Of a stretch of DNA of 32,000 nucleotides, positions 5,701 through 28,672 are shown piece by piece. Below the pieces are notes generated by a model that worked only from the letters and a program-made list of their open reading frames with translations, searched no databases and was not told the origin of the DNA. The DNA is taken from assembly GCA_943789275.1 (NCBI GenBank), contig CALSTM010000001.1, positions 598,585 to 630,584 on the forward strand, read 5' to 3'. Each line of letters begins with the position of its first letter. Position 1 is the stretch's first letter. This DNA is from Candidatus Poseidoniaceae archaeon (GTDB lineage Archaea; Thermoplasmatota; Poseidoniia; Poseidoniales; Poseidoniaceae). The position numbers and the translations under genes were made by a program.

Positions 5701-5936
5701 ATGTTGGTAAAGGCGAGGTCTGAAAAGCCACTTCCAGTCAGCATGATTTCTTCGCCTCCACTGGTCCAACCGTTTGACGGACTGACGGTGTAGGTTGATG
5801 AGCGTGCATCGGATTGACGAATATCGTTGAAGAGGTTCGATTGAATGTCCTGCTGACTGTCATCAGCGAGCATGTGTGCAGTTGGTAAAGTCACCCCGAA
5901 TAACAATACTGTAACCCACAAAGTCATCAAACGCAT
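2712..5936 (-). CDS. Large type-I membrane surface protein: signal peptide, IPT/TIG-like domains, beta-propeller-like repeats, about 12 thrombospondin type-3 Ca-binding repeats, one TM helix and a cytoplasmic coiled-coil tail of about 200 aa
   Basis: The ATG at 5936 is preceded by CAGGAGGACATA (an SD-like GGAGG). The track ORF starts at a GTG at 5975. The N-terminus MRLMTLWVTVLLFGVTLPTAHMLA is signal-like. Repeats HLHAVH, ELHVAY, HPHLSYA, NIYVAYQ, QFHMAHF, TPHIVYN and VMHVAFS are present. The unit DSDGDGVGDNxDAFPNDAxE recurs many times. The TM segment is AVMQTVGFGAIILALFGFLQTNLVAAFL. Confidence 0.9.
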   Translation of the reverse strand: MRLMTLWVTVLLFGVTLPTAHMLADDSQQDIQSNLFNDIRQSDARSSTYTVSPSNGWTSGGEEIMLTGSGFSDLAFTNITDDGLNHQWVKSTMDYTDEAGRYNSIVMDSNGHLHAVHISGENYQIRHSVNEGAGWNAMSINDCEGTYCWDVHMVIDDNDELHVAYTTDSTWSETLVYMHYNGTDWTDETVSSNANFGPIGIAVDSNNHPHLSYAAEGEFCGDGLRVASYDGSNWSYNNVDQGDNRGCDSALVIDENDNIYVAYQNRDNSKLKIATDKSGSWDTYNVDFGTSPSNLYPGYMTSMVMDQQGQFHMAHFDDKEDDLRYSTGAPNQQWTTTIVDSTGHTGRDPSIALDSSGTPHIVYNSWSGWDLKYAVYNSTTTSWDKSSISTTGDVGKGNSLFIDQNGVMHVAFSDETDGVLKYATKSTGLNQTKEITVQFGHYGSVTGTVVNDTTIVVTTPTAGQTADTVDITLWDKNDVSHPTGASFTFISQDDLDSDGVLNANDDCPNVAGTSTLDRTGCPDADGDGTSDSADAFPADASEWGDADGDGTGDNADAFPNDANETFDTDGDGVGDNGDAFPNNAGETLDSDGDGVGDNTDAFPSNADESVDSDGDGVGDNADAFPNDANETLDTDGDGIGDNSDPNPTQHYGDDSDGDSIANIDDAFPNDATQWSDTDGDGFGDNATGNNPDAFVDISTQWSDTDGDGYGDNWGNSTWNSSRFFVWPGQFVDGALMADHCPTEFGNSTADGYFGCIDVDGDGVADLYDDEVGDGTNESSNESSNETPPSDSDGDGVDDLSDLCPGTVEDGYVDIDGCLFDQDGDGVDDLKDTCPETSSGVSVNINGCAVENDEGSSFFESLSSGNQGAVMQTVGFGAIILALFGFLQTNLVAAFLPESVRWLRVFRKDSKLNKEEIRELEYLKSLVQTYYQDVGVLHDELYQLKSELTARYTNSEVKKITLEKINTLILDLLSMQAPELSHIAHNDAYFGLSGSLNTKERTEYLSQDALMRFEASDESDKTNDALAQVLGTQPLVEMQGQINETDGMEYLEYPAGSGRWFYRKHSVDDWTNWAQ
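3420..4465 (-). repeat. Coding tandem repeats (about 69 nt / 23 aa) encoding thrombospondin type-3-like DxDxDGxxDxxD calcium-binding loops
   Basis: Recurring units DTDGDGVGDNGDAFPNNAGETL and DSDGDGVGDNTDAFPSNADESV. They generate several long spurious ORFs in other frames and on the opposite strand. Confidence 0.8.
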
Positions 5937-6093
5937 TATGTCCTCCTGTTCTTCATCGGTAAAAATACTTGTCACAACTTAAAACAAGAAGCCCCTTTCG
6001 TTCAGAGGATTTCCCACCTGCTGCGCTTTGGTATTGAACAAGCGAACAGAAAACTGGAGGTTTACCTTTTTCCAATTCAATGCCCGCCTTTTT

Positions 6094-7249: not shown

Positions 7250-9850
7250 TTAATCGGATGAACATTTCTTGCTAAAAGGTTCCATCGAAGGTCGAAAAGA
7301 CTGTTTTTGATACGAAAAGAACTTTGCAGCAAACACCAGAGAAGCGGTGGATAACCACATGCCGGGCCACGGCAAAGCACCACCAGTGTCCTCCTTGCCC
7401 GTTGAGTTGGGTGAACAGTTCTGTTCACACGGTTCCGGATCGACCGTTTCGTTCAACTCAGAATCAGAGGTGTTGCCAGATTCGTTGCCAGCAGCCGAAA
7501 GGTTACTCGCATCTGATGAGTTGGTGCCGTTAGCAGATGAATGGCCATCGTGAGATCCAGTCCCTTGTGAACCATTCTCCGTGCCGTTGACAGACGTTTC
7601 GTTTTCCATTTGAACTTCACAACCCTGTTCATCAACACTGGCTCCGGAGGGAGTACCGGGACAATCGTCCTCAAGGTCATTCACATTGTCGTTGTCTCCA
7701 TCCCGTTGACGAGATGAACAGCCGTTGATGTCCACAGCTTCGTTTGACCTCGTGAGTGAACACCAATCATCGCCGTCAAGCACACCATCGCCATCGGTGT
7801 CGGCATCGGAAATCAAACAGCCCGTGTCGTCAACGGCGACGTTGGGCAGTGTCCCCGGGCATTCATCCACCGTGTCTGGCGTACCGTCTTCGTCCGAATC
7901 GCTCCCCATGCGCTGCAACACACCTGGAAAGGCCGTACCAAACACGACGCTGCCTGATGCGTCAAAGGTGGAGGTTGAAAACACCGAACCTCCTATGCAG
8001 CGTTCCACGGTGGTTCCTGTTTGTGCGTTCACAAGTGTACCGCCGCAATCGGCATGCAGCAGGTATACGCCGTCAGCAGAAGCCCCGAGCACGCGTTGAA
8101 CGCCAGGGTGGGTCAAATTCAGCGCCCAATCCAAGGTGTCGTAACCTTTGGTAACGTAACTCTGGTCCCACCAATCGCCCTCTGCACTTGAAATCCACAA
8201 CATGGATCCATCGGGTGAGAATTGAACATACGCTTCAGCATCAAAACCAGTCACGGTGGTTTCTTTGGACCACGTGCTTGTCGACCATACATGCACTTGA
8301 CCTTCGCCACCTTGGACGCTGGTCGAACCTTCGCCAACGGCCAGCAGGCCGCCGTCGGGAGAGAATTCAATGGATTGGGGCCATGAAACACCGGAGAGGG
8401 AGGTGATTTCGGTCCAATCCGAGGTTCGCCAAATCGTAATGGCAGATGAGCGAAGGTTCGCCGCTGCTAACATTTGACCGTCGGGGGACAGATCGAGAAG
8501 GTCGGGGGCAAGGTCTGTTGAACCAGTGGACAGATTGATCGAGTTGGTCCCGTAGGTGGTGTTCCATCCATGAATCGAGCCATTCGTCGTGAGGGCGTAA
8601 ACGGTGCTTCCCTCGGGGCTGAACAGCACCGAGCCGACCTCGCTATCGGCTTGAAGTACGTGCTGGATTTCAACCGATGCACCGTTCCAAAGCACCACGC
8701 GCCCCCCTTCATCTCCTGTGGCCACAAGGTTTCCATCGTTGGATGTTGCAATTGCCCGTACTGTCCGGTCGTGAATCTGGGGTTCAACCAACAGACCACC
8801 CGTGGAGGCATCGATGTACCGAAGGAGGGCTGAACCTGTTTCTCCACCGACCATCATGGAGTTTCTGTCTGGGCTCAAGTCCACAACGCGAAGTTGTGTT
8901 TGACCGTTGCTGAAGAGCGTCTGAGTTTCTTGTAGCGTGTCCGTCGTTCGAATTCCGAGTTGGCCACCATAGGCCACCGCCAGCTGGTTGTCGTCGATGA
9001 ATGTCACATCGTGAATGGAGTTGTACCGAACATCATCACTCGCACTCAAACTCCAATTTTCTGTGTTCCAAAGCCGCAGGTCGCTGTTAAAATCTCCACT
9101 TGCGGCCATGGTGCCGTCCGGTGAGAACCCGAGAGCAGTCACCTGACTGGTGTGGTGTTCAAGCAAGTGGGTTCGGGTCCAATCGCTGGTGCTCCAAACG
9201 CCGATTGACCCGTTCGTATGGCCGACCATCAAATCATCACCGTTTGGTGAAAGAGCCAAGCTGTAAGGAGAGCCGTTGGGCAGAGGATGTTCCGCTAAGG
9301 TGGTCCATTCAGAGGTTGAAAGCACCGTGATTGTTGGCGAAGCCTGAGCGTTCGTGCCCGTGACGATAAGTTCACTTGAATCGGGTGAAAAAGCGATGGA
9401 ACGTGCGCTCAAACCGGCTCCCGGTTCGCGTACGCCCCAATCGTTCGTGTCCCAAACCCACAAGCCGCCCTTTTCGGAGGTGACAGCCAACATCGTGCTG
9501 TCTGGAGAGAACGTGATGTCCCAGATGCTCCAACACACCCCACAGTCAAAACTTGTCACCACTTCCCATGTTTGGAGATCCCATACGAGCAAACGCTCAT
9601 CCTCCCCTCCAGACGCCAGCCACCGGCCGTCTGCCGAATGGGACAAGGCCGTGACATCGTCAAAATGCCCCCCGGCTTCGTCCTCGAGGGCCCACGACTG
9701 AGGAGTAACGTCTCGTGCTTGAGTGGCGTTCGCTGTAACGAGGACAGATGTCAGAGGCAGCAGCAACAAGGCGCCAAAAAGCCACACGCTGACCATCTGT
9801 CTGTATGGGAGCTTTGGATCCGTGGCGTCCAAGGCATGTTGAAAGAGCAT
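7250..9850 (-). CDS. Secreted WD40/beta-propeller repeat protein with C-terminal TSP3-like repeats, an N/S/T-rich sequon-dense linker and a C-terminal TM anchor
   Basis: Signal-like MVSVWLFGALLLLPLTSVLVTANA (alternative start 9796). Classic WD40 units such as VTALSHSADGRWLASGGEDERLLVWD recur. DADTDGDGVLDGDDWC and DGDNDNVNDLEDDCPGT loops are present. The linker carries NETS, NGTE, NGSQ, NGTN, NSSD, NLSA, NESG, NTSD and NETV. The tail is LPWPGMWLSTASLVFAAKFF. Confidence 0.9.
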   Translation of the reverse strand: MLFQHALDATDPKLPYRQMVSVWLFGALLLLPLTSVLVTANATQARDVTPQSWALEDEAGGHFDDVTALSHSADGRWLASGGEDERLLVWDLQTWEVVTSFDCGVCWSIWDITFSPDSTMLAVTSEKGGLWVWDTNDWGVREPGAGLSARSIAFSPDSSELIVTGTNAQASPTITVLSTSEWTTLAEHPLPNGSPYSLALSPNGDDLMVGHTNGSIGVWSTSDWTRTHLLEHHTSQVTALGFSPDGTMAASGDFNSDLRLWNTENWSLSASDDVRYNSIHDVTFIDDNQLAVAYGGQLGIRTTDTLQETQTLFSNGQTQLRVVDLSPDRNSMMVGGETGSALLRYIDASTGGLLVEPQIHDRTVRAIATSNDGNLVATGDEGGRVVLWNGASVEIQHVLQADSEVGSVLFSPEGSTVYALTTNGSIHGWNTTYGTNSINLSTGSTDLAPDLLDLSPDGQMLAAANLRSSAITIWRTSDWTEITSLSGVSWPQSIEFSPDGGLLAVGEGSTSVQGGEGQVHVWSTSTWSKETTVTGFDAEAYVQFSPDGSMLWISSAEGDWWDQSYVTKGYDTLDWALNLTHPGVQRVLGASADGVYLLHADCGGTLVNAQTGTTVERCIGGSVFSTSTFDASGSVVFGTAFPGVLQRMGSDSDEDGTPDTVDECPGTLPNVAVDDTGCLISDADTDGDGVLDGDDWCSLTRSNEAVDINGCSSRQRDGDNDNVNDLEDDCPGTPSGASVDEQGCEVQMENETSVNGTENGSQGTGSHDGHSSANGTNSSDASNLSAAGNESGNTSDSELNETVDPEPCEQNCSPNSTGKEDTGGALPWPGMWLSTASLVFAAKFFSYQKQSFRPSMEPFSKKCSSD

Positions 9851-9936
9851 GTTTCATCGTTAAAGAAACCGCACTTGATGTTTTCGGGAATCATGCAACT
9901 CCGTTCGTGACAAATCCAGTGGCTTCCGTCCTCCAC

Positions 9937-10033
9937 CTCGTACCGGGAAACTCAATGGTTCCGTCCGTACAATCGTACGTAAGATCGGAGTGCTCGTACC
10001 GGGAATCTCGTAAGTTCCGTCCGGACAATCGTA
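9937..10033. repeat. Two tandem units (period 56 nt) that begin with a copy of the tRNA-Glu 3' end
   Basis: Unit 9937: CTCGTACCGGGAAACTCAATGGTTCCGTCCGTACAATCGTA. Unit 9988: GAGTGCTCGTACCGGGAATCTCGTAAGTTCCGTCCGGACAATCGTA. The 17 nt at 9988-10004 are identical to 15659-15675 (trailer plus tRNA-Glu 3' end). Confidence 0.8.
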
Positions 10034-10195
10034 GAAATTTCGAGCCTTTCAACGAAGCTTGTGTTGGACGAAAACCATCAAGAAATATTTGGTTTTGAAT
10101 AAGAATATCCTGCTGACAAAAAATCTCTCTACGATACCACCCCCGCTGGAGAAAAGCCTCAAAGACCGTAATTCGTATTGAAACGAAAGAATCGC

Positions 10196-10663
10196 TCAGG
10201 AATGATATCGCTTTCCGAGCCAATGGCATACTCGCTCTAGAAGTTGAACATCCTCTGTTGAGAAGGCTGCAAGTTCATCCGAATCGACATCGAGAACAGC
10301 CACGACGTCTCCAGATAAATTCTTGATTGGAACAACAATTTCACTGTTGGTGGTTGAACTGCAAGCGATATGTTCTGGTCGTTCGTGAACATTGGGTACG
10401 TCCTGAGTTTCTCCAATTCGTGCAGCTGCACCACAAATCCCCTTTTCGAAAGGAATGAAAAGACAACCATGCCCGCCTTGATATGGCCCAATCTTGAGCA
10501 TATTTGGTGAAGTTGTTCGATAAAAACCCGTCCAGTGGAAGTGATCAAACGCATTGTGAAGTTCACAAGCAACGGTTGCCATAGCCGAAATCCAATCATC
10601 TTCATCATCAAGAATAGATGTCGTTCTTGCGAAGACTTCGTCATGGTCCATAAGAACAATCAA
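10196..10663 (-). CDS. msrC: GAF-domain free methionine-(R)-sulfoxide reductase (fRMsr, YebR/MsrC-like)
   Basis: WTGFY...GPYQGGHGCLFIPFEKGICGAAA...HIACSSTTNSEIVVPI...VLDVDS matches the fRMsr signature, including the three conserved Cys positions. Confidence 0.9.
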   Translation of the reverse strand: MIVLMDHDEVFARTTSILDDEDDWISAMATVACELHNAFDHFHWTGFYRTTSPNMLKIGPYQGGHGCLFIPFEKGICGAAARIGETQDVPNVHERPEHIACSSTTNSEIVVPIKNLSGDVVAVLDVDSDELAAFSTEDVQLLERVCHWLGKRYHS

Positions 10664-10889
10664 GATATTGCTGTATTCAAATGTTCCGAGGACATGTAAT
10701 ATTCAGAACTGTGGTCAAGCACCTTCCGACTATCCTGATGAATTCCCTAATTTTTAATAGATTGTAAAATAACTTTCATCTCATAACCCTAGATACAGCA
10801 ATGGCGGTGCGAATAAGCATTGAAAATTCGAAAAATGGCTCAAATGTTTTCTGCATCAAACGTATCACAACATAATGACGTCAAATGAA

Positions 10890-10932
10890 TGCTCGTACCG
10901 GGAATCACGCAAGTTCCGCACGGACAATTCTA
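10890..10932. repeat. Third copy of the 43-nt repeat unit that begins with the tRNA-Glu 3' end
   Basis: TGCTCGTACCGGGAATCACGCAAGTTCCGCACGGACAATTCTA. About 38 of 44 positions match the unit at 9991 by eye. The first 14 nt are identical to the tRNA-Glu 3' end (15662-15675). Confidence 0.75.
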
Positions 10933-11113
10933 AGTCCTTACGTACAACTCATCGTACCGGAAAAACCACATCAGATGGACGTCAAAACTAAGGGTTCGAA
11001 CGCTTGTGAGTTGAAATCCATTTGGTCCGGAAGTTAATCTCCCAACAATGGCAAGCCAGTGTATTCAGCAGAATTGTGGCCTGGGTGAGAAATGGACCTT
11101 TAGGAAAATGATT

Positions 11114-12412
11114 TCAAAAGAGGCCATACATCCACAATTCGTCTCCGTTGGTTCCGTCGTCGGCTCGGAAAAAGAGTGTGTTGCCGATGGCTGTGAAATA
11201 TAAGGGAGAACTGCTGCCGCTTCCGCTGTTGATATCCTTAACCATCACCGTGCCTGAGGCTGTTCCGTCGCTCTTCCACAATTCTCTTCCGTTGGTTCCG
11301 TCGTCGGCTTTGAAAAAGAGGGTGGAGCCAATGACTGTGAGTAGGGAGGGATAACTTAGTCCGCTGCCATTTCCGCTGTTAATATCCTTGACCATCACCG
11401 TGCCTGAGGCTGTTCCGTCGCTCTTCCACAATTCTCTTCCGTTGGTTCCGTCGTCGGCTGAGAAAAAGAGGGTGGTGCCAACGGCTGAGATTTCGGTGGG
11501 ATCACTGCCGTTACTTCCGCTGTAGATGTCCTTGACCATCACCGTGCCAGAGGCTGTTCCATCGCTCTTCCACAATTCGAATCCGTTGGTTGCGTCGAAG
11601 GCTTGGAAATAGAGAGTGTTGCCAACGGCTGTGAAGTAGATGGGAGAACTGCTACCACTTCCGCTGTTGATGTCCTTGACCATTACAGTGCCATTGGCTG
11701 TTCCATCGCTCTTCCACAATTCGCTTCCGTTGGTTCCGTCGTCGGCTCGGAAATAGAGGGTGTTACCAACAGTTGTGAAGCCGCCGGGAGAACTGCCGCC
11801 ACTCCCGCTGTTGATGTCCTTGACCATCACCGTGCCTGAGGCTGTTCCATCGCTCTTCCACAATTCGGTTCCGTTGGTTCCGTCGGTGGCTTGGAAATAG
11901 AGGGTGTTACCAACGGCTGTGAGGTAGGAGGGAGAACTGCCGCCACTTCCGCTGTTGATGTCTTTGACTATGACCGTGCCTGTGGCTGTTCCATCGCTCT
12001 TCCACAATTCGAATCCGTTGGTTGTGTCGAAGGCTTGGAAATAGAGGGTGTTGCCAGCAGCTGTGAAGCCGTTGGGAAAACTGCCGCCACTTCCGCTGTA
12101 GATGTCCTTGACCATCACCGTGCCTAAGGCTGTTCCATCGCTCTTCCACAATTCTCTTCCGTTGGTTCCGTCGGTGGCTTGGAAATAGAGGGTGTTGCCA
12201 AAGGCTCCGAGATAGGAGGTAGAACTGCCCCAAAATCCGCTGCGAATGTCCTTAACCATCACCGTGCCTGAGGCTGTTCCATCGCTCTTCCACAATTCGT
12301 ATCCGTTGGTTCCGTCGTTGGCTACGAAAAAGAGGGTGTTGCCAACGGCTGTGAACCAGACAGGAGAACTGCTGCTACTTCCGCTGATGATGTCCTTGAC
12401 CATTATGGCTCT
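11114..12412 (-). repeat. Nine tandem 144-nt coding repeats (ELWxxDGT units)
   Basis: Highly similar nucleotide units. They produce mirror ORFs on the plus strand at 11148-11354, 11603-11839 and 11891-12127. Confidence 0.9.
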
Positions 12413-13663
12413 CGCACAAGTAATGTATGAATAATCAATTTCATCGGCGTTCAGCTGTCCGTCTGCAGCAGTTCCACTTCCATCGCCATTATCCAAACCA
12501 CTGTTCATTTGATTTGCAGCACCAAGGCAATATGCCGAGTAACTAATCGTGACTAGTTCAAACAAGGTGGCCGCACTGTATGTTGAGATAAGCGATGCAA
12601 TTGTTGAATTTGCACCACTCCAACCAGTTTGTAAAGTTGCAATAGTAGAATTTGCTGAATTCCAGCCCGAGATGAGAGTTGAAATCGTGCCATTTGCATC
12701 ACTCCATCCGTTCGTGAGCGATGATATCGTTTGGTTCGCACCGTTCCACCCTGTGGTGAGAGATGCAATCGTTTGATTTGCCGCAGCAAGATCACTTTGC
12801 AGTGAACTGATGGTTTGGTTGGCATTACCCCAACCAGTGCTCATCGAGGAAATGGTCTGGTTTGCATTCCCCCATCCTGTTGAAAGTCCTGAAATGGTCT
12901 GATTTGCTGTATTCCAACCTTGTTGAAGGCTGTAAATGGTGGCGTTTGCTCCCGTCAATTGGCTTGTAAGCGAAGTGACTGTTTGGTTGGTCGACGACCA
13001 TCCAGATTGGAGCAAAGCAATGGTTGAGTTGGCTGCAGACAAATCAGATTGTAAGGAGGCGATGGTCGAGTTTGCACTGTTCCATCCAGTACCGAGGTCA
13101 GTGATGGTTGAATTTGCTCCGCTCCATCCTGTCAGAAGAGTTTCAATTGTGGCGTTTGCATTGGCCCAATTTGATTCGAGAAGAGCAATTTGAGCATTGG
13201 CTTCGGACAAATCAGAGAAGGCTGCGGATAATTGAGTTTGTAAAGAAGTGACAGTGGACATGTTTTCGTTGATCGAGGCATTGAGTGCGGAGAGTTCGCT
13301 TTGAAGTTCTGCAACATCTTGTTCAGTGGAATTTTGTTCTCCTTGTGTACTTGCAAGTTGAGTTTCCAAACTTGCCTTTTCGGATTCCAAACTGGCAATG
13401 TCCTGGTTGAGGGTAGCAAGACTTACGCTGAGATTCTCGATGGCCCGCTGGAGAAGCCCAACATTGGATTGAGAATCAGCATAATCCGATTCAAGTTGGG
13501 AAATGTTGCTGAGCAGATCATTGATGGTGACGTTGTTAGCATCAATTTGTTCGGTGTACGGCGTGATGTCGACGGATTCTGAAGTCTCGTCTCCACCAAT
13601 ACAACCAGCAAGGGTTGCGGTGAACATCAAGAAGGCAAGGAACAGAGGAGTGCTGTTGCGCAT
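11114..13663 (-). CDS. Lipobox-anchored surface protein: coiled-coil region, fourteen 14-aa GWxxANxTIxxL repeats, a Ca-binding-like loop and nine ELWKSDGT beta-propeller repeats
   Basis: The N-terminus MRNSTPLFLAFLMFTATLAGC carries a lipobox LAGC. Nine units of 48 aa follow the pattern VMVKDINSGSGGSSP..T.VGNTLYFQA.DGTNG.ELWKSDGTASGT. The protein ends DELWMYGLF. Confidence 0.95.
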   Translation of the reverse strand: MRNSTPLFLAFLMFTATLAGCIGGDETSESVDITPYTEQIDANNVTINDLLSNISQLESDYADSQSNVGLLQRAIENLSVSLATLNQDIASLESEKASLETQLASTQGEQNSTEQDVAELQSELSALNASINENMSTVTSLQTQLSAAFSDLSEANAQIALLESNWANANATIETLLTGWSGANSTITDLGTGWNSANSTIASLQSDLSAANSTIALLQSGWSSTNQTVTSLTSQLTGANATIYSLQQGWNTANQTISGLSTGWGNANQTISSMSTGWGNANQTISSLQSDLAAANQTIASLTTGWNGANQTISSLTNGWSDANGTISTLISGWNSANSTIATLQTGWSGANSTIASLISTYSAATLFELVTISYSAYCLGAANQMNSGLDNGDGSGTAADGQLNADEIDYSYITCARAIMVKDIISGSSSSSPVWFTAVGNTLFFVANDGTNGYELWKSDGTASGTVMVKDIRSGFWGSSTSYLGAFGNTLYFQATDGTNGRELWKSDGTALGTVMVKDIYSGSGGSFPNGFTAAGNTLYFQAFDTTNGFELWKSDGTATGTVIVKDINSGSGGSSPSYLTAVGNTLYFQATDGTNGTELWKSDGTASGTVMVKDINSGSGGSSPGGFTTVGNTLYFRADDGTNGSELWKSDGTANGTVMVKDINSGSGSSSPIYFTAVGNTLYFQAFDATNGFELWKSDGTASGTVMVKDIYSGSNGSDPTEISAVGTTLFFSADDGTNGRELWKSDGTASGTVMVKDINSGNGSGLSYPSLLTVIGSTLFFKADDGTNGRELWKSDGTASGTVMVKDINSGSGSSSPLYFTAIGNTLFFRADDGTNGDELWMYGLF
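12584..13177 (-). repeat. About fourteen tandem 42-nt coding repeats (14-aa unit GW-x-x-AN-x-T-I-x-x-L-x-x), each containing an N-x-T sequon
   Basis: Protein residues about 163-360: SNWANANATIETLL TGWSGANSTITDLG TGWNSANSTIASLQ SDLSAANSTIALLQ SGWSSTNQTVTSLT and so on. Confidence 0.85.
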
Positions 13664-13735
13664 GAGCAGCGCTCAAGCATCTTTCACTTCTAGTTTGGCT
13701 GGATTCTTGTGCGGCGAAACCCCATGAATCACTGT

Positions 13736-13753
13736 GAGTGCTCGTACCGGGAT
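13736..13753. repeat. att-like direct repeat: 18 nt identical to the tRNA-Glu 3' end plus 3 nt of trailer
   Basis: GAGTGCTCGTACCGGGAT at 13736-13753 equals 15659-15676 in the same orientation. The flanks diverge immediately on both sides. Confidence 0.8.
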
Positions 13754-13894
13754 ACTATCTGCAAATACCATGGTGTTTTTCCCGAAATTATTAGCAATCA
13801 GCAGTTTGATGTAATACGACCATCTAACATGTATTGCAGTACGGTGCAGTGAGACTTAAATCTTACAAGAGCATCACCCATATTGGAGATAGAC

Positions 13895-14413
13895 ATGAAA
13901 GACGAATCTGAAGATAACACTTTATCCATACTTGAAAGGTTGGAGGAATTAGCTCTATGGCAGCCCAAAGATTTGGGTTTATCATATGTGAAATCAGGTG
14001 AAAAAACGGTCAAACTAATCACCCAAGAAAACAATCAAACTTCTAAGCATTACAGAGAATCAATGAAAGAGAGAATTGAAAATGTGGGATGGACAGTGGA
14101 CGAAAGTGAAGTAAAGATAAAGGAAATTCCAAAATATTCACCCAGTGAACAGTATATAATTGACCAACATGTTTCAATCCAAAACTTGAATTGTAACTGT
14201 GAAAGACCTATCTCTTCTTTCCCATTGAGCAAAGGAGTCTGGAGGCATACTGATGAAAAATTTCAAACAGTTTACGACGATGACGGTGAAAATACAACGA
14301 TATTATGGTCAGTGAATGTAACATGCCCTAGTTGCGGTATGGAAATCCCCCTTTCTCCGCTGCAATTTGGACTTATGTTAACAGTCAAATATTCAGAAGT
14401 GGGAAAAATTTGA
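13895..14413 (+). CDS. Hypothetical protein with a four-Cys (CxC ... CPxCG) putative zinc-binding C-terminal half
   Basis: The ATG at 13895 is preceded by GGAG 7 nt upstream. Cys pairs are NCNCERP and TCPSCG. I recognise no family. Confidence 0.6.
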   Translation: MKDESEDNTLSILERLEELALWQPKDLGLSYVKSGEKTVKLITQENNQTSKHYRESMKERIENVGWTVDESEVKIKEIPKYSPSEQYIIDQHVSIQNLNCNCERPISSFPLSKGVWRHTDEKFQTVYDDDGENTTILWSVNVTCPSCGMEIPLSPLQFGLMLTVKYSEVGKI

Positions 14414-14492
14414 ATTAAAGATCTATCTAGAAAATTCCGTGAATCAATTAAATATTATAGAGAATTTAAAAACAAATCTGTGGTGATTAACT

Positions 14493-15119
14493 TTGACTAA
14501 TCAGAAATTAGAAACAATGAATTTATTCGAGAAGTGGTATGAATTTACCGAACAAGGCACATTTATAGCTTGGTGCTTGGAAAGATGTGAACTTACTAAG
14601 CAGCAAGTATATTGTGAATTACTTGAATTAGCTTATGACATTCATTATCATTATCAAGAAGAGGTGTGGGAAGAATTAGAAAATTCAGAGAATATTTACC
14701 ATTTTTTCAACAAGCATGAATACTTAGATTGTATTTTTAGACCTTTTAATGATGAGATGCATACTCGATATTTTTTACGAGTTGTAGATGAATGTGAACC
14801 TGAGCATTTTCTCAAAGAAGAATTCGATTTTTTTAACCCCGACTTCTGTTCGGATATTATTTCATATTTTATTGACGTCGAGATGAATGGAATGATTTAC
14901 AAAGTAAAAAGGACATTTTTTTCAGATGATATAGACGGTACAATAAATTGGGAGTTGGAGGGTTTTGAGTCTACGCTCTCTTTTAGTTACTGGGAACAAA
15001 TCAAAGAAGAAAACGGCTATGTGAACATTGGCTATTTCCCGAATCCATATCCGTTTGAAATTCCGAGTAATCCCTTTAATGATTTAAAAATTCACAGAAA
15101 AAATAAAATTATTCCTTAG
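14493..15119 (+). CDS. Hypothetical, strongly acidic and aromatic-rich protein (orphan)
   Basis: The TTG at 14493 is preceded by GGTGA. An alternative ATG lies at 14517. It is rich in E/D/F/Y/W (EEVWEELENSEN, DECEPEHFLKEEFDFFNPDF). I recognise no domain. Confidence 0.6.
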   Translation: MTNQKLETMNLFEKWYEFTEQGTFIAWCLERCELTKQQVYCELLELAYDIHYHYQEEVWEELENSENIYHFFNKHEYLDCIFRPFNDEMHTRYFLRVVDECEPEHFLKEEFDFFNPDFCSDIISYFIDVEMNGMIYKVKRTFFSDDIDGTINWELEGFESTLSFSYWEQIKEENGYVNIGYFPNPYPFEIPSNPFNDLKIHRKNKIIP

Positions 15120-15498
15120 TGCGCTGCTTCTTGTATTCCTTGACATCTTTGCTCAACTGTTCAAGACCCCATATAAGATGCGAGAAGCCAGGATTACCTG
15201 CCCACTTCGGGAAGGCACCAGCCATACCTTGCCATTCGCTTCCATCAGTGACGGTGTCAGCGTCCAAATTACTGTACACAGCACGCATAATGCACCTCGT
15301 TATCGCTTTTGAAAATGCTTCTTGGTTTGCCAGCAGTGCTTCCCAAGATGGACTTGAAGGTGGTCCGCTGTGTACACGTACAATGAGGTCTATTGAATTG
15401 AGAAAATCATAAGCTGTACCAAAAGATCCAGTCAATACAAATTCATTCATCCAATTTATCGGGCTTTCATTACTGTTTTCTTTATTTTCATCGGTCAT
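15109..15498 (-). CDS. Hypothetical protein (orphan), convergent with the previous gene and overlapping it by 11 nt
   Basis: The ATG at 15498 is preceded by GAGGA 7 nt upstream. Length is 129 aa. I recognise no motif. Confidence 0.55.
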   Translation of the reverse strand: MTDENKENSNESPINWMNEFVLTGSFGTAYDFLNSIDLIVRVHSGPPSSPSWEALLANQEAFSKAITRCIMRAVYSNLDADTVTDGSEWQGMAGAFPKWAGNPGFSHLIWGLEQLSKDVKEYKKQRTKE

Positions 15499-15661
15499 TT
15501 CGATTCCTCTTTTTCTTTTTCAGAAGTGTTTACTTCTTTATTAAATTAAGAAATCAAGAGTATATGAATCAATTCTAAAAACTGGTAATAATGAAAAAAG
15601 TAGTTCCTTTTTGAATATTCAAAGAGTGAACGGTTAAAACTATAGAAGCGTTAACTGAGAG

Positions 15662-15734
15662 TGCTCGTACCGGGATTTGAACCCGGGTCGAAGGAATGAG
15701 AGTCCTTCATGATGGGCCACTACACTATACGAGC
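15662..15734 (-). tRNA. tRNA-Glu (anticodon CUC)
   Basis: Reverse complement: GCTCGTA TA GTGT AGTGGCCCA TCAT G AAGGA CTCTCAT TCCTT C-GACC CGGG TTCAAAT CCCGG TACGAGC A. The acceptor stem has 7 bp and the T-loop is GTTCAAATC. The anticodon loop is C-U-CUC-A-U. CCA is not encoded. Confidence 0.9.
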
Positions 15735-16470: not shown

Positions 16471-17346
16471 ATGTCGGCAGATGTTCGGGCGTTCATTGAG
16501 TTGATGCGTCCAAAAAACATGGTGCTTGCTGCAATCACTGTACCACTTGGTGCTCTTTTTGGACTCAATGCATCGCTTACCGAACAACAGATGACTGCTG
16601 TCGTGATTCAAATCCTTTCAGTCCTTGCCTTCATGGGCGCTGGAAACGCCATGAACGATATCAAAGATGCTGCAATTGATGCACAAGCTCACCCGAACCG
16701 ACCACTCCCATCGCAGCGAATCAGTCTTGCGGCTGCAAAGAAGTTCGTTATCGTCTTGTGGCTAATCAGTTTCAGTTTCATGGTGGCTGGCGTCTATCTC
16801 CTCATGGAGAATGATGCGACTTGGTGGCCACTTGTCGCTATTTACGTCACCGCAGTAGCACTCATGCTCACCTATGATTTGGGACCAGAAACCAAAACCA
16901 AGGGACTCATCGGGAATGTTTCCATTTCGCTTATGGTTGCAGCAGTAATCTTGTACGGAGCAGCCACAGTTGATTCAATCACCCGACTTTCCTTCCTCGT
17001 TGCTGGCGTGGTGTTCTTCACGAACTTAGCACGAGAAATTGTCAAAGATTGCCAAGACATGCTCGCAGATGAAGGAGAACGGTATACCCTACCAATGAAG
17101 ATCGGTTTAGAGCGTGCTCGTATGTTGGCTTACGTGTTCATCATGGCGGGACTCGTGTGCTTGTACATCCCATACTGGAAGGGACCTTTCGAGTTCGGCC
17201 GGCTGGTCATGCAGACTCCTGCCATTCTGGTTCTCATTACTTTGAACGGCCCACTGTTTCAAGGTGATGATGTCATGGTATCAAGTCGTATCCGAGTGGC
17301 AATGCTGCTCGGACTCATGGGGTTCATACTTACGATGTTCGTATAA
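16471..17346 (+). CDS. UbiA-family prenyltransferase, probably digeranylgeranylglyceryl phosphate (DGGGP) synthase
   Basis: Polytopic membrane protein. The first Asp-rich motif is NAMNDIKDAAIDAQAHPNRPLPS and the second is KDCQDMLADEGERYTLP. Size (291 aa) is typical. Confidence 0.8.
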   Translation: MSADVRAFIELMRPKNMVLAAITVPLGALFGLNASLTEQQMTAVVIQILSVLAFMGAGNAMNDIKDAAIDAQAHPNRPLPSQRISLAAAKKFVIVLWLISFSFMVAGVYLLMENDATWWPLVAIYVTAVALMLTYDLGPETKTKGLIGNVSISLMVAAVILYGAATVDSITRLSFLVAGVVFFTNLAREIVKDCQDMLADEGERYTLPMKIGLERARMLAYVFIMAGLVCLYIPYWKGPFEFGRLVMQTPAILVLITLNGPLFQGDDVMVSSRIRVAMLLGLMGFILTMFV

Positions 17347-19324: not shown

Positions 19325-19343
19325 CTATGCGGAGGAATTGAAT

Positions 19344-22300
19344 ATGAGCGAAGAAAAACCACCTATGCCACCCGGATTACCACCTATGCCTCCAATGCCT
19401 CCTGCTCCACCGGGTATGGACGCACCTCCTGCCCCTCCAATGGACGCTCCACCTGCTCCACCGGGTATGCCACCTATGCCTCCAATGCCAGAGATGGGCG
19501 CTCCGCCTGCTCCGCCTATGGACGCACCTCCTGCTCCGCCAGGTATGCCACCTATGCCTCCAATGCCAGAGATGGGTGCTCCGCCTGCTCCGCCAATGGA
19601 CGCACCTCCGGCTCCACCCGGCATGCCAGCAATGCCACCTATGCCAGAAATGAGCGCACCACCAATGCCGCCTATGCCTGAGATGGGTGCACCACCTGCA
19701 CCTCCAATGCCTGAAATGGATGCACCACCAATGGAAGCACCACCTGCACCTCCAATGCCTGAAATGGACGCTCCGCCAATGGACGCACCACCTGCTCCAC
19801 CAGGTATGCCACCTATGCCGCCAATGCCAGAGATGGATTCTGCACCTGCAGTTGATGCCTCCGCACTTCTTGGTGGCGCCCCTCCAGCACCTCCAATGCC
19901 TGAAATGGACGCTCCGCCAATGGACGCACCTCCAGCTCCACCAGGTATGCCACCTATGCCGCCTATGCCAGAGATGGATTCTGCACCTGCCGTTGATGCC
20001 TCAGCACTCCTTGGTGGCGCCCCTCCGGCACCTCCAATGCCAGAAATGGACGCTCCACCAATGGATGCACCACCTGCTCCTCCTGGTATGCCGCCAATGC
20101 CCCCTATGCCTGAAGCACCACCTGCAATGGATGGTGCTGCACTGCTCGGTGGCGCACCACCTGCACCCCCTGTGCCCGAAATGGAAACAGAACCTGCGCC
20201 TGATGCTGCCTCATTGCTTGGCGGTAGTGCAGCATTGCTTGGTTCACCTGTTGAAGAATCGACTGAAGAAGCAAAGGAGATTCCTGCTTTGCCGACCACA
20301 CTTGCTGCTGACCCAGTTCTTGGCACTCCGGACAATCTTGTCGGAGAACAAGCTGGTGCTGTCATTCGAAGCAGTGCCGAAGTTGATGAAGTCCTCGGCG
20401 ATAAACTCGAAGGTACCTTGCACGAGGTTGAAAAGTCGACATTGAACGCTGACGGTGAAATCGTCAAGCAGACGGTCAAAGGTTTGCTTACAGTGAACAA
20501 TCCATCTGCTGAAGACCGAATCTACGACATCGATGTTTTGCTTGATCACGCTGATTCAACCGATATCGGCGGAGACCACGTTTCCGTTGATGAATTGGAA
20601 GCAGGAACGAACTACAGTATGAAATACAAGGTCTCAGGAAAGCGAATGCTGGTTCTGCGAGAGCGTCTCGATACCAATCCAGCACGTTCCCAAGAACACT
20701 CGATGTCTGTCTCTTCCGGTGATGAAGGTGGCCCTGTTGCCATGGAACTTGAAGTTGAAAACACGGCGCCTGTGGCGATCCAAGGCGTTACTGTCACACG
20801 ACCTCTTCCAGACGAACTCACGTTCGAAAACACTGGAGTCGCGACCGTTGAAGGAAACGAACTCACATGGAATGTTGGGGACATGGCTGCAGGAGAAAAG
20901 CAAGTTCTCAGTGTTGAAGGAACCATCGTCGTAACCGGTACCAAAGCCATCGACGCAGGTGCAGCATCTGCGACCTACACATCCGATTCGACGCTCTCAA
21001 ACTTGAATTTCCGTGAACTCGATGCATTCTGCCGAGGCTTCTCTTACATGCGTGTACGTGAAGACGAACGGCCAGACAATTGGCTTTGCCGAACCACATT
21101 TGAAAACCGTTCTTCGTTCGCAGTCGATTTGGTGAAACTCCAAGTCCGAATGAAGGGAAGCGAAGATTTGCTGTTCGACATTGGCGATGTTCGTCAAGAC
21201 GTCAAACCTCATGGTAAGTGGGAAAGCGACGAGCGCTCCGTCATGGCACTCTCAAAGCCTGATTTCACCACAAACCTCGCTTATACCATATTGCCTCGTG
21301 CCTCACGAAGTACCGAAGGTTCCATCTCGTTGCAATCAAAGAAGTTCGAAGTCGTCGAAGCAGACTTGTCAAAGTCGTATTCGACCACTGGACTTCGTTC
21401 GTTCCGAAAGCAAACCGTTCACGCTACATTAACCCTAACCAACAACGGTTCGGCTGACATTAACTTGATGCGCATCACCGACGATATTCCAGGACTGTTT
21501 GAAGCTCCTGATGCCTCGAAGATTTCGATTAAGGTGAATGGAAAGGATATCGATGCTGATCAAATTAAAGCAGAAATCAACAGCGGTATTACCCTCGAAA
21601 AGAACAACCGTTCACCTGATGGTGATGGTTTCACCTACACCATTACGGTCGGAGCACGCGGTCCAGTAGGCCTCAAACCTGGAAAGAACATGACCATCGA
21701 CTACGAATTGGTTGCACCCGGTCCAACTGAACACGAAGGCCTCACGGTAAGCGCACCTGCTCGAACTGAATTCAGCGCAGAACGGTACGGACCAGTTTGT
21801 ACCCGAGACGCAACTGAAGCACCTTCCGTCAACATCATCCACAACCGAAGAAAGTTCGGTGCTGGTAAGATGACACAGAAAATCGGCGGAAAGGGACGGC
21901 ATGAAGTCTTGATTATGTTCAACAACGAAGGCGACACTGGACTGAAAGACGTCACACTCAAGGACGTCATTCCAGAAAATTTCGAGATTAAAGACTGGCT
22001 TATCCGTGGTAACGGAGACAAGCGAGATGACTGTGAAATGACCAGTGAAGAAGGCGAAGATGGAACACATCTCGCTTGGAACATCCCGTTGGTGAACAAG
22101 GGCGAAGAAATTATGATTTCCTTCGAAATCACTGGCCCAGGAGCCATTGACGGAGAACTCGGAAACATCTTCCACGGCGTTCACTTCGGCGACGAAGACG
22201 AATCCATCGACGTCCCTGCACCTGAGAAGGAAGAAGCTGAGGAAACGACCGAAGAATCAACTGAGGAAGCAATGGAAGAACCAGCCGCTGAAGAAGCGTC

Positions 22301-26643: not shown

Positions 26644-26711
26644 TCGTAATACTGTACTCCTTAAACGGTTTTGGAGATTTAAATTCAACGAAGGTGATTG
26701 GGTTTGGATTC

Positions 26712-26854
26712 GTTGATGCGCACGGTCCACTCACGTTGTATTATGTTTCAGAGTGGACGTGCCGAGCAATCAACAAAGGTGTTCGGAATCAGTTTGTTGA
26801 TGCGCACGGTCCACTCACGTTGTATTATGTTTCAACAAGAGTGGACGTGCCGAG
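26712..26854. repeat. Direct duplication (55 and 59 nt, 84 nt apart) of the tRNA-Ala 3' end plus about 42 nt of its trailer
   Basis: The 39-nt core GTTGATGCGCACGGTCCACTCACGTTGTATTATGTTTCA is followed by GAGTGGACGTGCCGAG at 26712-26766. The same sequence recurs at 26796-26854 with a 4-nt ACAA insertion between the two parts. The last 13 nt are the tRNA-Ala acceptor 3' strand. Confidence 0.85.
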
Positions 26855-26914
26855 ATTTGAACTCGGGGCCTCTACCATGCCAAGGTAGCGATCTTCCAAC
26901 TGATCTACACGCCC
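26842..26914 (-). tRNA. tRNA-Ala (anticodon GGC)
   Basis: Reverse complement: GGGCGTG TA GATC AGTTGGAA GATC G CTACC TTGGCAT GGTAG AGGCC CCGAG TTCAAAT CTCGG CACGTCC A. The cloverleaf is perfect. The G3:U70 pair is the Ala identity element. Confidence 0.92.
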
Positions 26915-28596: not shown

Positions 28597-28672
28597 GGAC
28601 GTATAGTGTAGTTGGATATCACTTTGGCCTTCTAAGCCGAAAACCCGGGTTCGAATCCTGGTACGTCCGCCA
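28597..28672 (+). tRNA. tRNA-Arg (anticodon UCU), CCA encoded
   Basis: GGACGTA TA GTGT AGTTGGATA TCAC T TTGGC CTTCTAA GCCGA AAAC CCGGG TTCGAAT CCTGG TACGTCC G CCA. Confidence 0.92.

What the first reader, a model, noticed from the sequence alone, without database searches (positions are those of the whole stretch)
9937..15734. Array of five same-orientation copies of the tRNA-Glu 3' end, with a single gene in each of the two lower intervals
The core CTCGTACCGGGA (acceptor 3' strand plus T-stem) occurs at 9937, 9993, 10892, 13741 and in the tRNA itself (15664), always in the same orientation. Identity to the tRNA plus trailer is 12, 17, 14 and 18 nt for the four extra copies. The three lower copies also share an extended unit of about 43 nt (..GGGAATCNCGNAAGTTCCGNNCGGACAATNNTA) that is not tRNA sequence. 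The intervals contain exactly one gene (fRMsr), one gene (the ELW lipoprotein) and the three-gene islet. Read along the minus strand, each gene is followed about 160-170 nt downstream by a repeat copy. This is compatible with serial integrations at one tRNA that left stacked att remnants, or with a cassette-like recombination site or a 3' structural element derived from the tRNA. No recombinase is present in this part of the window.
Basis: partly seen in the sequence, partly recalled or inferred. Interest (0 to 1): 0.65.

Follow-up and report, generated by a model that had tools for sequence, protein, structure and literature searches.

The report
Stacked integration scars at archaeal tRNA-Glu
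The repeated copies of the tRNA-Glu 3' end are attachment-site copies left by mobile DNA that repeatedly inserted at this tRNA in a marine Group II archaeon, making a strain-variable gene island; this process is well known, but it has not been described in these abundant uncultured archaea.

Summary
CTCGTACCGGGA occurs five times on one strand (0.07 expected), and three copies share a roughly 43-nt tail.

The window comes from a Poseidoniaceae (Marine Group II) archaeon. Each extra copy is an att-type junction: the tRNA-Glu(CTC) 3' end (core, 12-18 nt) followed by a conserved element-side arm. Copies at 9937, 9993 and 10892 carry arm T1. The copy at 13741 carries arm T2.

Ten contigs of the same species are more than 99% identical on the 5' side of the tRNA. 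On the 3' side they carry different combinations of the same blocks (fRMsr only, ELW only, both, or other cargo), and identity breaks exactly at the cores. Two strains carry a tyrosine integrase next to the tRNA (intact in L039, a pseudogene in L044). The intact element ends in a T2 unit.

In 136 related loci the units are co-oriented, and the only tRNA gene found near them in the metagenome loci is tRNA-Glu(CTC). They have no conserved RNA fold and no preferred orientation relative to genes.

About 95% of the 131 blocks between cores lack an integrase, and about a quarter are empty 55-102-nt modules.

Verdict: this is a serial-integration hot spot, an additive genomic island. It is a new member of a known kind and of moderate interest.

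The parts
15661..15734 (-). tRNA-Glu(CTC), intact. Its 3' end (15661-15676 on the + strand, GTGCTCGTACCGGGAT) is the integration target (attB core / current attL).
   Evidence: ARAGORN. Rfam tRNA, 63.4 bits. In conspecific strains identity to the window begins exactly at 15659-15665.
9937..9948 (+). Core copy A. It is the outermost copy, has one mismatch at its left edge (CCTCG...), and abuts the chromosomal flank next to the WD40 gene. It is probably the oldest displaced tRNA 3' end.
   Evidence: The same flank plus core (gcttccgtcctccaCCTCGTACCGGGA) is joined to different blocks in L036-L038, L040 and L008.
9949..10004 (+). 'Empty' 56-nt T1a module: T1 tail A, then CGTACGTAAGATCGGAGT, then core copy B (9993-10004; 17-nt identity from 9988).
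   Evidence: The same module is 100% (68 nt) and 98.6% (72 nt) identical at two places in L017, a Poseidonia sp. whose neighbouring genes are only about 72% identical at nucleotide level.
10005..10903 (+). fRMsr block (899 nt). It consists of T1 tail B (10005-10029, palindrome GTCCGGAC), the GAF/fRMsr-like gene 10196-10663 (-), the right-end motif R2 CATAATGACGTCAAATGAAT (10871-10890, palindrome TGACGTCA) and core copy C (10892-10903).
   Evidence: Pfam GAF. The block lies directly next to the tRNA in L024 and L037 and is absent in L038. R2 is the tRNA-proximal arm of Int-B integrase elements.
10904..13752 (+). ELW block (2849 nt). It consists of T1 tail C (10904-10928), a degenerate second core TCGTACCGGAA (10952-10962), the ELWxxDGT-repeat lipoprotein gene 11114-13663 (-), the right end ...GAATCACTGTGAGT and core copy D (13741-13752).
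   Evidence: NCBIfam ELWxxDGT_rpt, 9 repeats. Window 10890-13753 is 100% identical in L042 and L045 with different neighbours, and the block is absent in L037.
13753..15675 (+). Low-GC islet block (1923 nt, GC 0.35). It consists of the T2 tail TACTATCTGCAAATACCATGGTG (13753-13775), ORFs 13883-14413 (+), 14493-15119 (+) and 15109-15498 (-), the right-end motif R1 AAACTATAGAAGCGTTAACTGAGAGT (15637-15662) and the tRNA's own core.
   Evidence: A 22/23 direct repeat flanks it. GC is 0.29-0.37 against about 0.50. The block is absent in L036-L038, L040 and L042. In L028 another T2 block sits between it and the tRNA. The ORFs have no family matches.

Best explanation
The region from 9937 to 15734 is an integration hot spot, an additive genomic island, at the 3' end of tRNA-Glu(CTC) in a Poseidoniaceae (Marine Group II) archaeon.

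Proposed mechanism:
1. Integrative elements encode a tyrosine integrase distantly related to archaeal XerA, together with a roughly 170-aa partner ORF.
2. Their attP recombines with a 13-17-nt core at the end of the tRNA gene: trailer bases and discriminator, the acceptor 3' strand and the T-stem 3' strand.
3. The element supplies a new copy of the core, so the tRNA stays intact. The previous copy is pushed outward.
4. Every extra copy in the window is therefore a former junction. It consists of the core followed by the element-side arm of the block that lies between it and the tRNA. That arm is T1 with palindrome GTCCGGAC, or T2 with palindrome TACCATGGTA.
5. The 10-25 nt before the next core are the element's other arm (motifs R1, R2 and others).
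6. The window holds four such blocks stacked in one orientation: an empty 56-nt module, fRMsr, ELW and the three-ORF islet. None has kept an integrase.
7. Blocks are removed, and probably also added at internal cores, by recombination between cores. This produces the strain-to-strain combinations.

Shown: the junction anatomy; the presence/absence polymorphism with breakpoints at the cores; the integrase-bearing elements at the same site with a T2 distal end; and decay intermediates.

Inferred: that the integrases catalyse these events; that T1 is the arm of the Int-B type; and that integrase-less blocks arose by loss of the integrase module.
For: Organism. L008, from a Poseidoniaceae MAG, is 99.5% identical to window 7502-9973. 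About 20 of the 27 T1 hits in 185,579 species genomes are in Poseidoniales MAGs, some of them mislabelled; the remaining hits, in unrelated taxa, are at the ~17 expected by chance.

Strain polymorphism.
- Ten contigs encode the identical UbiA protein and are 99.3-99.8% identical from the tRNA onward.
- On the 3' side they read: L037 flank-A-fRMsr-tRNA; L038 flank-ELW-tRNA; L036 and L040 A-fRMsr-ELW-tRNA; L042 GAF-McrBC-ELW-tRNA; L039, L041, L043, L044 and L045 carry other cargo.
- Identity blocks end exactly at the cores.
- L024 has fRMsr (98% aa identity) directly next to the tRNA. Its homology to the window stops at 10903, the last base of core C.
- L028 has another T2 block inserted between the islet and the tRNA.

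Integrases.
- L039 carries a 6.8-kb element: tRNA, a 172-aa ORF, a 318-aa PF00589 integrase, cargo, then a T2 unit.
- L046 and L047, from another species, have the same layout. TACCATGGTA lies on both arms.
- R158, H263, R266 and Y298 are conserved in at least 95% of 46 family members. The best PDB and NCBIfam relatives are XerD and XerA.
- Int-B is a pseudogene in L044 and intact in L174 and L187-L195. It always sits next to tRNA-Glu with the arm ...TTGACGTCAAAGGAAT. This is the motif that ends the window's fRMsr block.

Arm pairing is non-random. R2 pairs with T1 in 6 of 7 blocks, R3 with T2 in 4 of 5, and R4 with T3 in 8 of 12.

Decay intermediates. In L145 an integrase is truncated at aa 139 and fused to a truncated T1 core. 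In L076 a 39-aa integrase remnant lies inside a T1...R3 block. L044 carries a pseudogene.

Population of units. In 120 metagenome loci (616 kb) the units are co-oriented in 119, and the only tRNA gene is tRNA-Glu(CTC), found 7 times.

Composition. GC is 0.35 for the islet and 0.41-0.42 for the fRMsr block, against about 0.50 in the flanks.
Against: - No integrase, intact or fragmentary, lies anywhere in the 32-kb window.
- Only about 5 of roughly 131 distinct inter-core blocks contain one. Simple decay of autonomous elements therefore has to be very efficient, yet it must leave both arms and exact cores intact.
- About a quarter of blocks are empty modules of 55-59 nt (T1) or 102 nt (T3+R4). 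These are too short to have integrated as circles, and the simple model does not explain them.
- The distal end of an intact Int-B element was never captured, so the T1/Int-B link is indirect.
- The ELW block has genome-like GC (0.50). It has a 57% aa homologue next to a T1 unit in another species (L001), so it is old rather than recently acquired.
- No circular or excised form was observed. IMG/VR has no copy of T1, T2 or T3.
Confidence: 0.8

Rival explanations
1. The array is an integron-like capture platform. The integrase-less blocks are non-autonomous cassettes, each carrying a complete recombination site (right arm R, core, left arm T). A few integrase-bearing helper elements in the population excise, insert and shuffle them in trans. 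Insertion can occur at internal cores as well as at the tRNA.
For: - 70 of 131 blocks hold exactly one ORF of at least 120 aa, and about 95% lack an integrase.
- Blocks with unrelated cargo share the same end motifs. R1 ends 21 different blocks, and T1, T2 and T3 begin nearly all blocks.
- The low-GC McrBC block in L042 sits between the fRMsr and ELW blocks, whereas the ELW block is old. This suggests insertion at an internal core.
- The 56-nt T1a module is 100% identical between genera whose genes are about 72% identical.
Against: - All observed combinations can also be derived by insertions at the tRNA plus core-by-core deletions.
- No circular cassette was seen.
- ORFs are not co-oriented (81 against 79).
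- The units do not fold like attC sites.
- No integrase sits at a fixed position beside the array. The integrases match integron integrase only at 22 bits against a cut-off of 265.
- Decay intermediates exist.
Confidence: 0.3
2. The conserved 40-100-nt units act only as homology anchors. Blocks are exchanged by ordinary homologous recombination after DNA uptake, and the site-specific integrases play no part in the turnover of integrase-less blocks.
For: Units are long enough (56-100 nt, often more than 90% identical) and co-oriented, so homologous recombination between them would delete or replace blocks with breakpoints inside the repeats. Replacement by homologous recombination is documented for flexible islands of marine bacteria (PMC4033161).
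Against: - Blocks with different tails (T1 against T2) share only the 13-17-nt core. That is short for homologous recombination, yet the junctions are exact.
- This reading does not explain why the shared segment is exactly the tRNA 3' end.
- It does not explain why integrase elements occupy the same site, or why the two arm types pair non-randomly.
Confidence: 0.12
3. The unit is a functional RNA or transcript 3'-end element derived from the tRNA, such as a terminator, a processing signal or a tRNA mimic placed after genes.
For: In the window the fRMsr and ELW genes are each followed on the - strand by a copy about 160-180 nt downstream.
Against: - Fold z-scores for single copies are -0.18 to +1.30 on both strands.
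- RNAalifold on 170 distinct units gives -1.3 and 0.0 kcal/mol, with at most a 4-bp stem.
- There is no Rfam match apart from the tRNAs themselves.
- Gene orientation relative to the units is 81 against 79, and 31 blocks have no ORF at all.
Confidence: 0.03

Closest known systems
Tycheposon-seeded genomic islands of Prochlorococcus (Hackl et al., bioRxiv 10.1101/2020.12.28.424599)
   Same: Both involve an abundant marine plankter. Tyrosine-integrase elements target the 3' part of specific tRNA genes. Successive integrations push older elements into the island. Partial tRNA copies and degraded integrases are scattered through the island. Intact elements are rare compared with remnants. Cargo is adaptive or defensive.
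   Different: The host is an archaeon and the target is tRNA-Glu(CTC). The integrases resemble XerA/XerD, and they were not placed in the tycheposon clade here. No replication or helicase module was seen. The blocks are mostly single genes with conserved arms on both ends. Empty 55-102-nt modules are frequent.
Additive flexible genomic islands next to tRNA genes in Alteromonas and other marine bacteria (PMC4898812, PMC5217437, PMC10872708; found by literature search only, not read)
   Same: Both are strain-variable islands anchored at a tRNA gene that differ by gain and loss of gene cassettes. The flanking core genome is nearly identical between strains.
   Different: Those are bacterial and usually consist of larger cassettes with integrases or conjugative elements. 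A family of conserved short arm motifs bounding nearly every block is not part of the description I recall (own knowledge, not checked in these papers).
tRNA-integrated elements of cultivated archaea (Sulfolobus, Thermococcales, Methanococcales), of pNOB8 and SSV type
   Same: Both use a tyrosine integrase with an att core equal to the 3' part of a tRNA gene. Remnants persist as direct repeats in archaeal chromosomes (own knowledge; compare PMC4383910 and PMC6972569, both seen only as search hits, not read).
   Different: SSV-type integrases are split by integration because attP lies inside the int gene. Here the integrase is intact in the integrated state (L039, L046). The lineage (Poseidoniales) and the dense stacking of integrase-less single-gene blocks also differ.
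Integrons, and cis-mobilizable elements (CIMEs) that form tandem arrays with ICEs
   Same: Both are ordered, co-oriented arrays of recombination sites separating mostly single-gene, integrase-less units. The sites within one array are conserved in sequence, as in chromosomal superintegrons.
   Different: There is no IntI-type integrase beside the array. There is no attC-like hairpin. ORFs are not co-oriented. The recombination core is a tRNA 3' end.
Charybdis proelements integrated in Poseidoniales genomes (bioRxiv 10.1101/2025.08.03.668216)
   Same: They have the same host order, carry an integrase and are reported to lie next to host tRNA genes.
   Different: The Charybdis hallmark genes (Gp3 and the structural module) were not compared here. 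T1, T2 and T3 patterns have no hit in IMG/VR, the source of most Charybdis genomes. Whether the L039/L046 elements are related is untested.

Membership tests
tRNA-targeted integrative elements / genomic islands with att direct repeats (tandem array) | Inserted DNA is flanked by a direct repeat of the 3' part of the tRNA gene, in the same orientation as the tRNA's own copy. | tested here: met
   There are five co-oriented copies. A 22/23 repeat flanks the islet. Units are co-oriented in 119 of 120 related loci.
tRNA-targeted integrative elements / genomic islands with att direct repeats (tandem array) | The target tRNA gene remains intact after insertion. | tested here: met
   ARAGORN and Rfam (63.4 bits) call a complete tRNA-Glu(CTC). 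The trailer after the discriminator changes with the adjacent block.
tRNA-targeted integrative elements / genomic islands with att direct repeats (tandem array) | Presence/absence polymorphism among close relatives, with breakpoints at the repeat. | tested here: met
   L036-L045 against the window: flanks are 99.3-99.8% identical, blocks are present or absent independently, and identity ends at the cores. L024 and L028 show the same.
tRNA-targeted integrative elements / genomic islands with att direct repeats (tandem array) | A site-specific (tyrosine) integrase is encoded by the element. | tested here: inconclusive
   Not met in the window: Pfam finds none and the family HMM has no hit. Met at the same site in conspecific L039 and in L046, L047, L174 and L187-L195, with the R..HxxR..Y residues conserved. 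L044 carries a pseudogene.
tRNA-targeted integrative elements / genomic islands with att direct repeats (tandem array) | Excision and integration are demonstrated (circular form, empty site produced by the integrase). | not testable with these tools
   Only natural variants that look like empty or filled sites were seen. There are no circle junctions and no biochemistry.
Integron | An IntI-type integrase gene and attI sit at a fixed end of the array. | tested here: not met
   There is no integrase in the window or beside the arrays in 16 genome loci. Int-B matches TIGR02249 at 22 bits against a cut-off of 265.
Integron | attC sites are imperfect inverted repeats that fold as hairpins. | tested here: not met
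   No fold exceeds that of shuffles. There is no conserved structure in 170 units.
Integron | Cassettes are mostly single, promoterless ORFs in one orientation. | tested here: not met
   Single ORFs are common (70 of 131 blocks), but orientation is 81 against 79.
SSV-type archaeal integrative elements | attP lies inside the integrase gene, so integration splits the gene into two parts. | tested here: not met
   The integrase ORF is complete in the integrated state in L039 and L046, 0.5 kb from the tRNA. T1 is not part of any integrase gene examined.
Dispersed intergenic repeat (REP/MITE-like) or structured RNA | Many copies scattered over the genome, independent of one locus; or a conserved secondary structure. 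| tested here: not met
   There are 1-3 contigs with hits per MAG, all array-like. The only tRNA gene in the 120 metagenome loci is tRNA-Glu(CTC). One stray degenerate T1 lies near a tRNA-Ala in L006. There is no conserved structure. Whole complete genomes could not be scanned.
Tycheposons | The integrase belongs to the tycheposon tyrosine-recombinase clade and is associated with their replication modules. | not tested
Only the island-building behaviour was compared.

The most novel reading that the evidence does not exclude
Poseidoniales carry a tRNA-anchored, integron-like gene-capture system. Single-gene, integrase-less cassettes are bounded by a complete R-core-T recombination site. Rare integrase-bearing helper elements excise, insert (also at internal cores) and exchange these cassettes between genera in trans. 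The empty 55-102-nt modules serve as spare docking sites. This would be a cassette system built on a tRNA 3' end rather than on attC hairpins, in one of the most abundant archaeal groups of the surface ocean.
Probability: 0.25. Interest if true: 0.7.

Novelty: new member of a known kind. Interest (0 to 1): 0.45.

Why it matters
Marine Group II archaea are among the most abundant uncultured microbes of the surface ocean. How their flexible genome is built is poorly known.

This locus shows a concrete mechanism: one tRNA-Glu gene serves as a landing pad where surface proteins, defence systems (McrBC, GmrSD, methylases) and small metabolic genes are stacked and removed. The content differs between otherwise near-identical strains.

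The short conserved signatures (core plus T1, T2 or T3, and the R motifs) give a simple way to find the island, its cargo and the associated integrases in metagenomes. They also explain why assemblies of these genomes break at this place.

The process itself is well known from bacteria and cultivated archaea, so the finding extends known biology rather than changing it.

Tried and rejected
1. Coding remnant or split integrase. Differences between copies B and C looked synonymous in two frames, which suggested an SSV-type int gene split by attP. I rejected this. The apparent 3-periodicity came partly from the fixed positions of my search pattern. Unbiased copies carry 1-nt indels (L027 2214, L024 6904). 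No long ORF spans the units. The integrases are intact when integrated.

2. Structured RNA or terminator. There is no fold signal in single copies or in 170 aligned units, and no Rfam match.

3. Virus origin. Scans of IMG/VR for T1, T2 and T3 gave 0 hits each.

4. T1 as a decayed tRNA body. Comparison by eye with the tRNA-Glu T arm gave no convincing homology beyond the core.

5. Function of the islet ORFs and of the 172-aa integrase partner. Pfam, NCBIfam and PADLOC gave nothing.

6. Exact-protein look-up of the window's fRMsr. It is not on record.

7. Capturing the distal end of an intact Int-B element, to prove that T1 is its arm. All 10 contigs shown are 4.2 kb or shorter and end before it.

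8. L053. The contig starts inside the element, so its tRNA-side junction could not be read.

9. tRNA-Arg(TCT). There is no second copy of its 3' end within the window.

Full report
**1.

The 12-mer CTCGTACCGGGA occurs at 9937, 9993, 10892, 13741 and 15664, always on the + strand. Dinucleotide-preserving shuffles give 0.07 matches, and none of 100 shuffles reached five.

The last copy is the 3' end of an intact tRNA-Glu(CTC) on the - strand, at 15661-15734. The 12-mer is its T-stem 3' strand plus six of the seven bases of the acceptor 3' strand.

Reading the sequence confirms contiguous identities of 12, 17, 14 and 18 nt to tRNA plus trailer. The copy at 13741 matches 22 of 23 positions over 13731-13753 against 15654-15676.

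The three lower copies share a further roughly 30-nt non-tRNA tail, here called T1:
- They form repeat family D14 (42 nt, 74-88% identity).
- The pattern CCGGGAAN8GTTCCGNNCGNACAAT finds exactly these three sites, with none expected.

The intervals contain the following genes:
- a GAF/fRMsr-like gene at 10196-10663 (-);
- a protein with nine ELWxxDGT repeats at 11114-13663 (-);
- three ORFs with no family match.

The three-ORF interval has GC 0.29-0.37, against about 0.50 around it.

**2. What organism, and how widespread is the unit**

I scanned one genome from each of 185,579 species for the T1 tail without the acceptor-strand part of the core. This gave 27 hits. About 20 are true hits, and all of these lie in Poseidoniales (Marine Group II) MAGs, a few of them mislabelled.

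One of these loci, L008, is 99.5% identical to window 7502-9973. The window is therefore from a Poseidoniaceae archaeon.

Every true hit has the tRNA-Glu core, or a degenerate version of it, directly upstream. The tail is therefore tied to the tRNA-Glu 3' end.

The copy at 13741 also has a conserved tail of its own, T2 (TACTATCTGCAAATACCATGG). This tail recurs in many of these genomes. A third type, T3 (CGGAACGTTAGAATTGGAAT), exists elsewhere.

In these loci the region 3' of tRNA-Glu is an array. Blocks of 0-3 genes are separated by co-oriented units of the form core plus tail.

**3. Strain comparison**

Looking up the window's UbiA protein (16471-17346) returned ten contigs that encode the identical protein. 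From the tRNA onward, on its 5' side, they are 99.3-99.8% identical to the window. Identity begins exactly at 15659-15665.

On the 3' side they differ completely in content:

| Locus | Content 3' of tRNA-Glu |
|---|---|
| L037 | chromosomal flank, empty 56-nt module, fRMsr block, tRNA |
| L038 | flank, ELW block, tRNA |
| L036, L040 | empty module, fRMsr block, ELW block, tRNA |
| L042 | GAF block, a 5-kb McrBC block, ELW block, tRNA |
| L039, L041, L043, L044, L045 | other cargo |

Other points from these comparisons:
- The ELW block (window 10890-13753) is 100% identical in L042 and L045 although its neighbours differ.
- In L024, from another MAG, the fRMsr gene (98% aa identity) lies directly beside the tRNA. 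Homology to the window ends at 10903, the last base of core C.
- In L028 a further T2 block lies between the islet and the tRNA.

Each block therefore runs from just after one core to the end of the next. It is made of a tail, cargo, a short right-end motif and a core. Blocks are present or absent independently.

**4. The recombinases**

The window has no recombinase. Pfam finds none among its ORFs. An HMM built from the integrase family described below has no hit in the window or in the 16 genome loci.

Conspecific L039 carries a 6.8-kb element next to the tRNA. It consists of:
- a 172-aa ORF;
- a 318-aa PF00589 tyrosine integrase;
- cargo;
- at the far end, a core plus T2 unit.

L046 and L047, from a different species, have the same layout. 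The palindrome TACCATGGTA is present on both arms: ACATACCATGGTATTTAGT on the tRNA side, and the T2 tail on the distal side.

The family conserves R158, H263, R266 and Y298 in at least 95% of 46 members. Its closest solved or curated relatives are XerD and archaeal XerA, but all matches are far below family cut-offs.

A second type, Int-B, is about 39% identical to the first.
- It is a pseudogene in L044 and intact in L174 and L187-L195.
- It always lies next to tRNA-Glu with the arm ...TTGACGTCAAAGGAAT.
- The window's fRMsr block ends with the same motif family: CATAATGACGTCAAATGAAT at 10871-10890.

More distant members of the integrase family sit at tRNA-Glu(TTC), at a variant tRNA-Glu(CTC) and at tRNA-Gln in other lineages.

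**5. Population of units**

Within these loci:
- units are co-oriented in 119 of 120;
- 61% of T1 tails have the exact sequence TGCTCGTA upstream, and most of the rest have degenerate versions;
- the only tRNA gene present is tRNA-Glu(CTC), found in seven loci;
- only three loci have any integrase signal.

Pooling all data gives 131 distinct inter-core blocks of 41 nt to 10 kb, with a median of 1.2-1.9 kb.
- 70 blocks hold one ORF of at least 120 aa, and 31 hold none.
- ORFs lie 81 on one strand and 79 on the other relative to the units.

The right ends of blocks fall into recurrent motif families (R1-R5). These pair non-randomly with tail types:

| Right-end motif | Paired tail | Count |
|---|---|---|
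| R2 | T1 | 6 of 7 |
| R3 (ACCATGGTATTT) | T2 | 4 of 5 |
| R4 | T3 | 8 of 12 |

This is what is expected if R and T are the two arms of attP for different integrase subtypes.

Decay intermediates exist:
- L145 has an integrase truncated at residue 139 and fused to a truncated T1 core.
- L076 has a 39-residue integrase remnant inside a block bounded by T1 and R3.
- L044 has a fragmented integrase.

**6. Rejected readings**

RNA element. Single copies fold no better than shuffles on either strand, with z-scores from -0.18 to +1.30. RNAalifold on 170 distinct T1 units gives -1.3 and 0.0 kcal/mol. Rfam finds only the tRNAs. Together with the absence of orientation bias, this removes the 3' structural element reading.

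Coding remnant of a split integrase. This early idea was dropped. Copies carry 1-nt indels, and the integrases are intact when integrated.

Virus origin. IMG/VR contains none of the three tails.

**7. Mechanism**

The most likely sequence of events is as follows.
1. Integrase-bearing elements recombine their attP (R arm, core, T arm) with the 13-17-nt core at the end of tRNA-Glu.
2. The tRNA is restored by the element's copy of the core.
3. The displaced copy ends up distal, preceded by the element's T arm.
4. Repetition stacks the blocks.
5. Integrase modules are lost.
6. Recombination between cores removes blocks, and perhaps inserts them at internal cores.

What is shown and what is inferred:
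- Shown: the junction anatomy, the polymorphism, the integrase elements with matching arms, and the decay intermediates.
- Inferred: catalysis by these integrases, the T1/Int-B assignment, and the origin of the integrase-less blocks.

Two things are not explained well.
- About 95% of blocks lack an integrase, yet they keep both arms and exact cores.
- About a quarter of blocks are empty 55-59-nt or 102-nt modules. Window 9949-10004 is one. It is 100% identical over 68 nt to copies in a Poseidonia sp. whose genes are only about 72% identical.

These two points leave room for a trans-mobilised, integron-like cassette system. I rate that at roughly 0.25-0.3.

**8. Comparison with known systems**

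The behaviour matches several known systems:
- tycheposon-seeded islands of Prochlorococcus, which show successive integrations, partial tRNAs and degraded integrases;
- additive flexible islands at tRNAs in marine bacteria;
- tRNA-integrated elements of cultivated archaea.

It is not an integron. There is no IntI beside the array, no attC-like fold and no co-orientation of ORFs.

It is not SSV-type, because the integrase is not split by integration.

A 2025 preprint reports that integrase-bearing Charybdis elements lie next to tRNAs in Poseidoniales. I found no description of this tRNA-Glu array or of its arm motifs.

I therefore class it as a new member of a known kind, with moderate interest.

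Noticed in passing
window 26709-26914: The same architecture occurs at tRNA-Ala(GGC) (26841-26914, -). A 17-nt copy of its 3' end, AGAGTGGACGTGCCGAG, lies at 26750-26766 as well as in the tRNA (26838-26854). A 42-nt repeat lies at 26709-26750 and 26793-26834 (98% identical). Together they form an 'empty' 88-nt module. Strains L038 and L041 stop matching the window at about 26820 and carry a VWA gene instead of the phosphoesterase gene. This is probably a second integration hot spot.
   Followed up: partly
window 1461-2663 (+): A 400-aa type IB topoisomerase (Pfam Topoisom_I plus Top1B_N_bact) lies about 7 kb from the array. It is also present in strain L037. It shares chemistry with tyrosine recombinases, but nothing links it to the array.
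   Followed up: no
window 28597-31700: tRNA-Arg(TCT) at 28597-28672 is followed by the hairpin GTACCCCGTGAATGGGGTAC. Beyond it is a stretch with GC dips to 0.34-0.36 that encodes a C5 cytosine DNA methylase (29853-30704). This may be another island. No second copy of the tRNA-Arg 3' end lies inside the window.
   Followed up: partly
L045 6736-6770 (conspecific contig): Between the core and the tRNA body there is an 11-nt duplication, TCGTACCGGGA (GCTCGTACCGGGATCGTACCGGGATTTGAACC). I cannot tell whether it is a real recombination footprint or a long-read assembly error.
   Followed up: no
L006 (MAG B_MB87, oriented coordinates 5640-5871): A T1 tail with a degenerate core (AAAACCGGGAATCTCGC...) lies about 100-140 nt 3' of a tRNA-Ala(TGC). 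It is the only T1 unit seen away from a tRNA-Glu array.
   Followed up: partly
L039 8624-9142, L046 4204-4722, L044 8562-9074, L174 4749-5267, L187 971-1483: Every integrase of this family is preceded, on the tRNA side, by a 170-176-aa ORF whose end overlaps the integrase start. It has no family match and looks coiled-coil. It may be a directionality or regulatory partner.
   Followed up: partly
window 11069-12526 and 12600-13159: The ELW gene contains nine 144-nt tandem repeats (the ELWxxDGT repeats) and a second set of 42/84-nt periodic repeats. Surface-protein genes at 2712-5975 and 19338-22772 are also internally repetitive.
   Followed up: no
L041, L042, L053 (arrays in related genomes): Cargo of the blocks includes defence-type genes: McrBC, GmrSD, a HerA/DUF87 ATPase with AAA_15, and C5 methylases. 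The tRNA-Glu array therefore also acts as a defence island.
   Followed up: no
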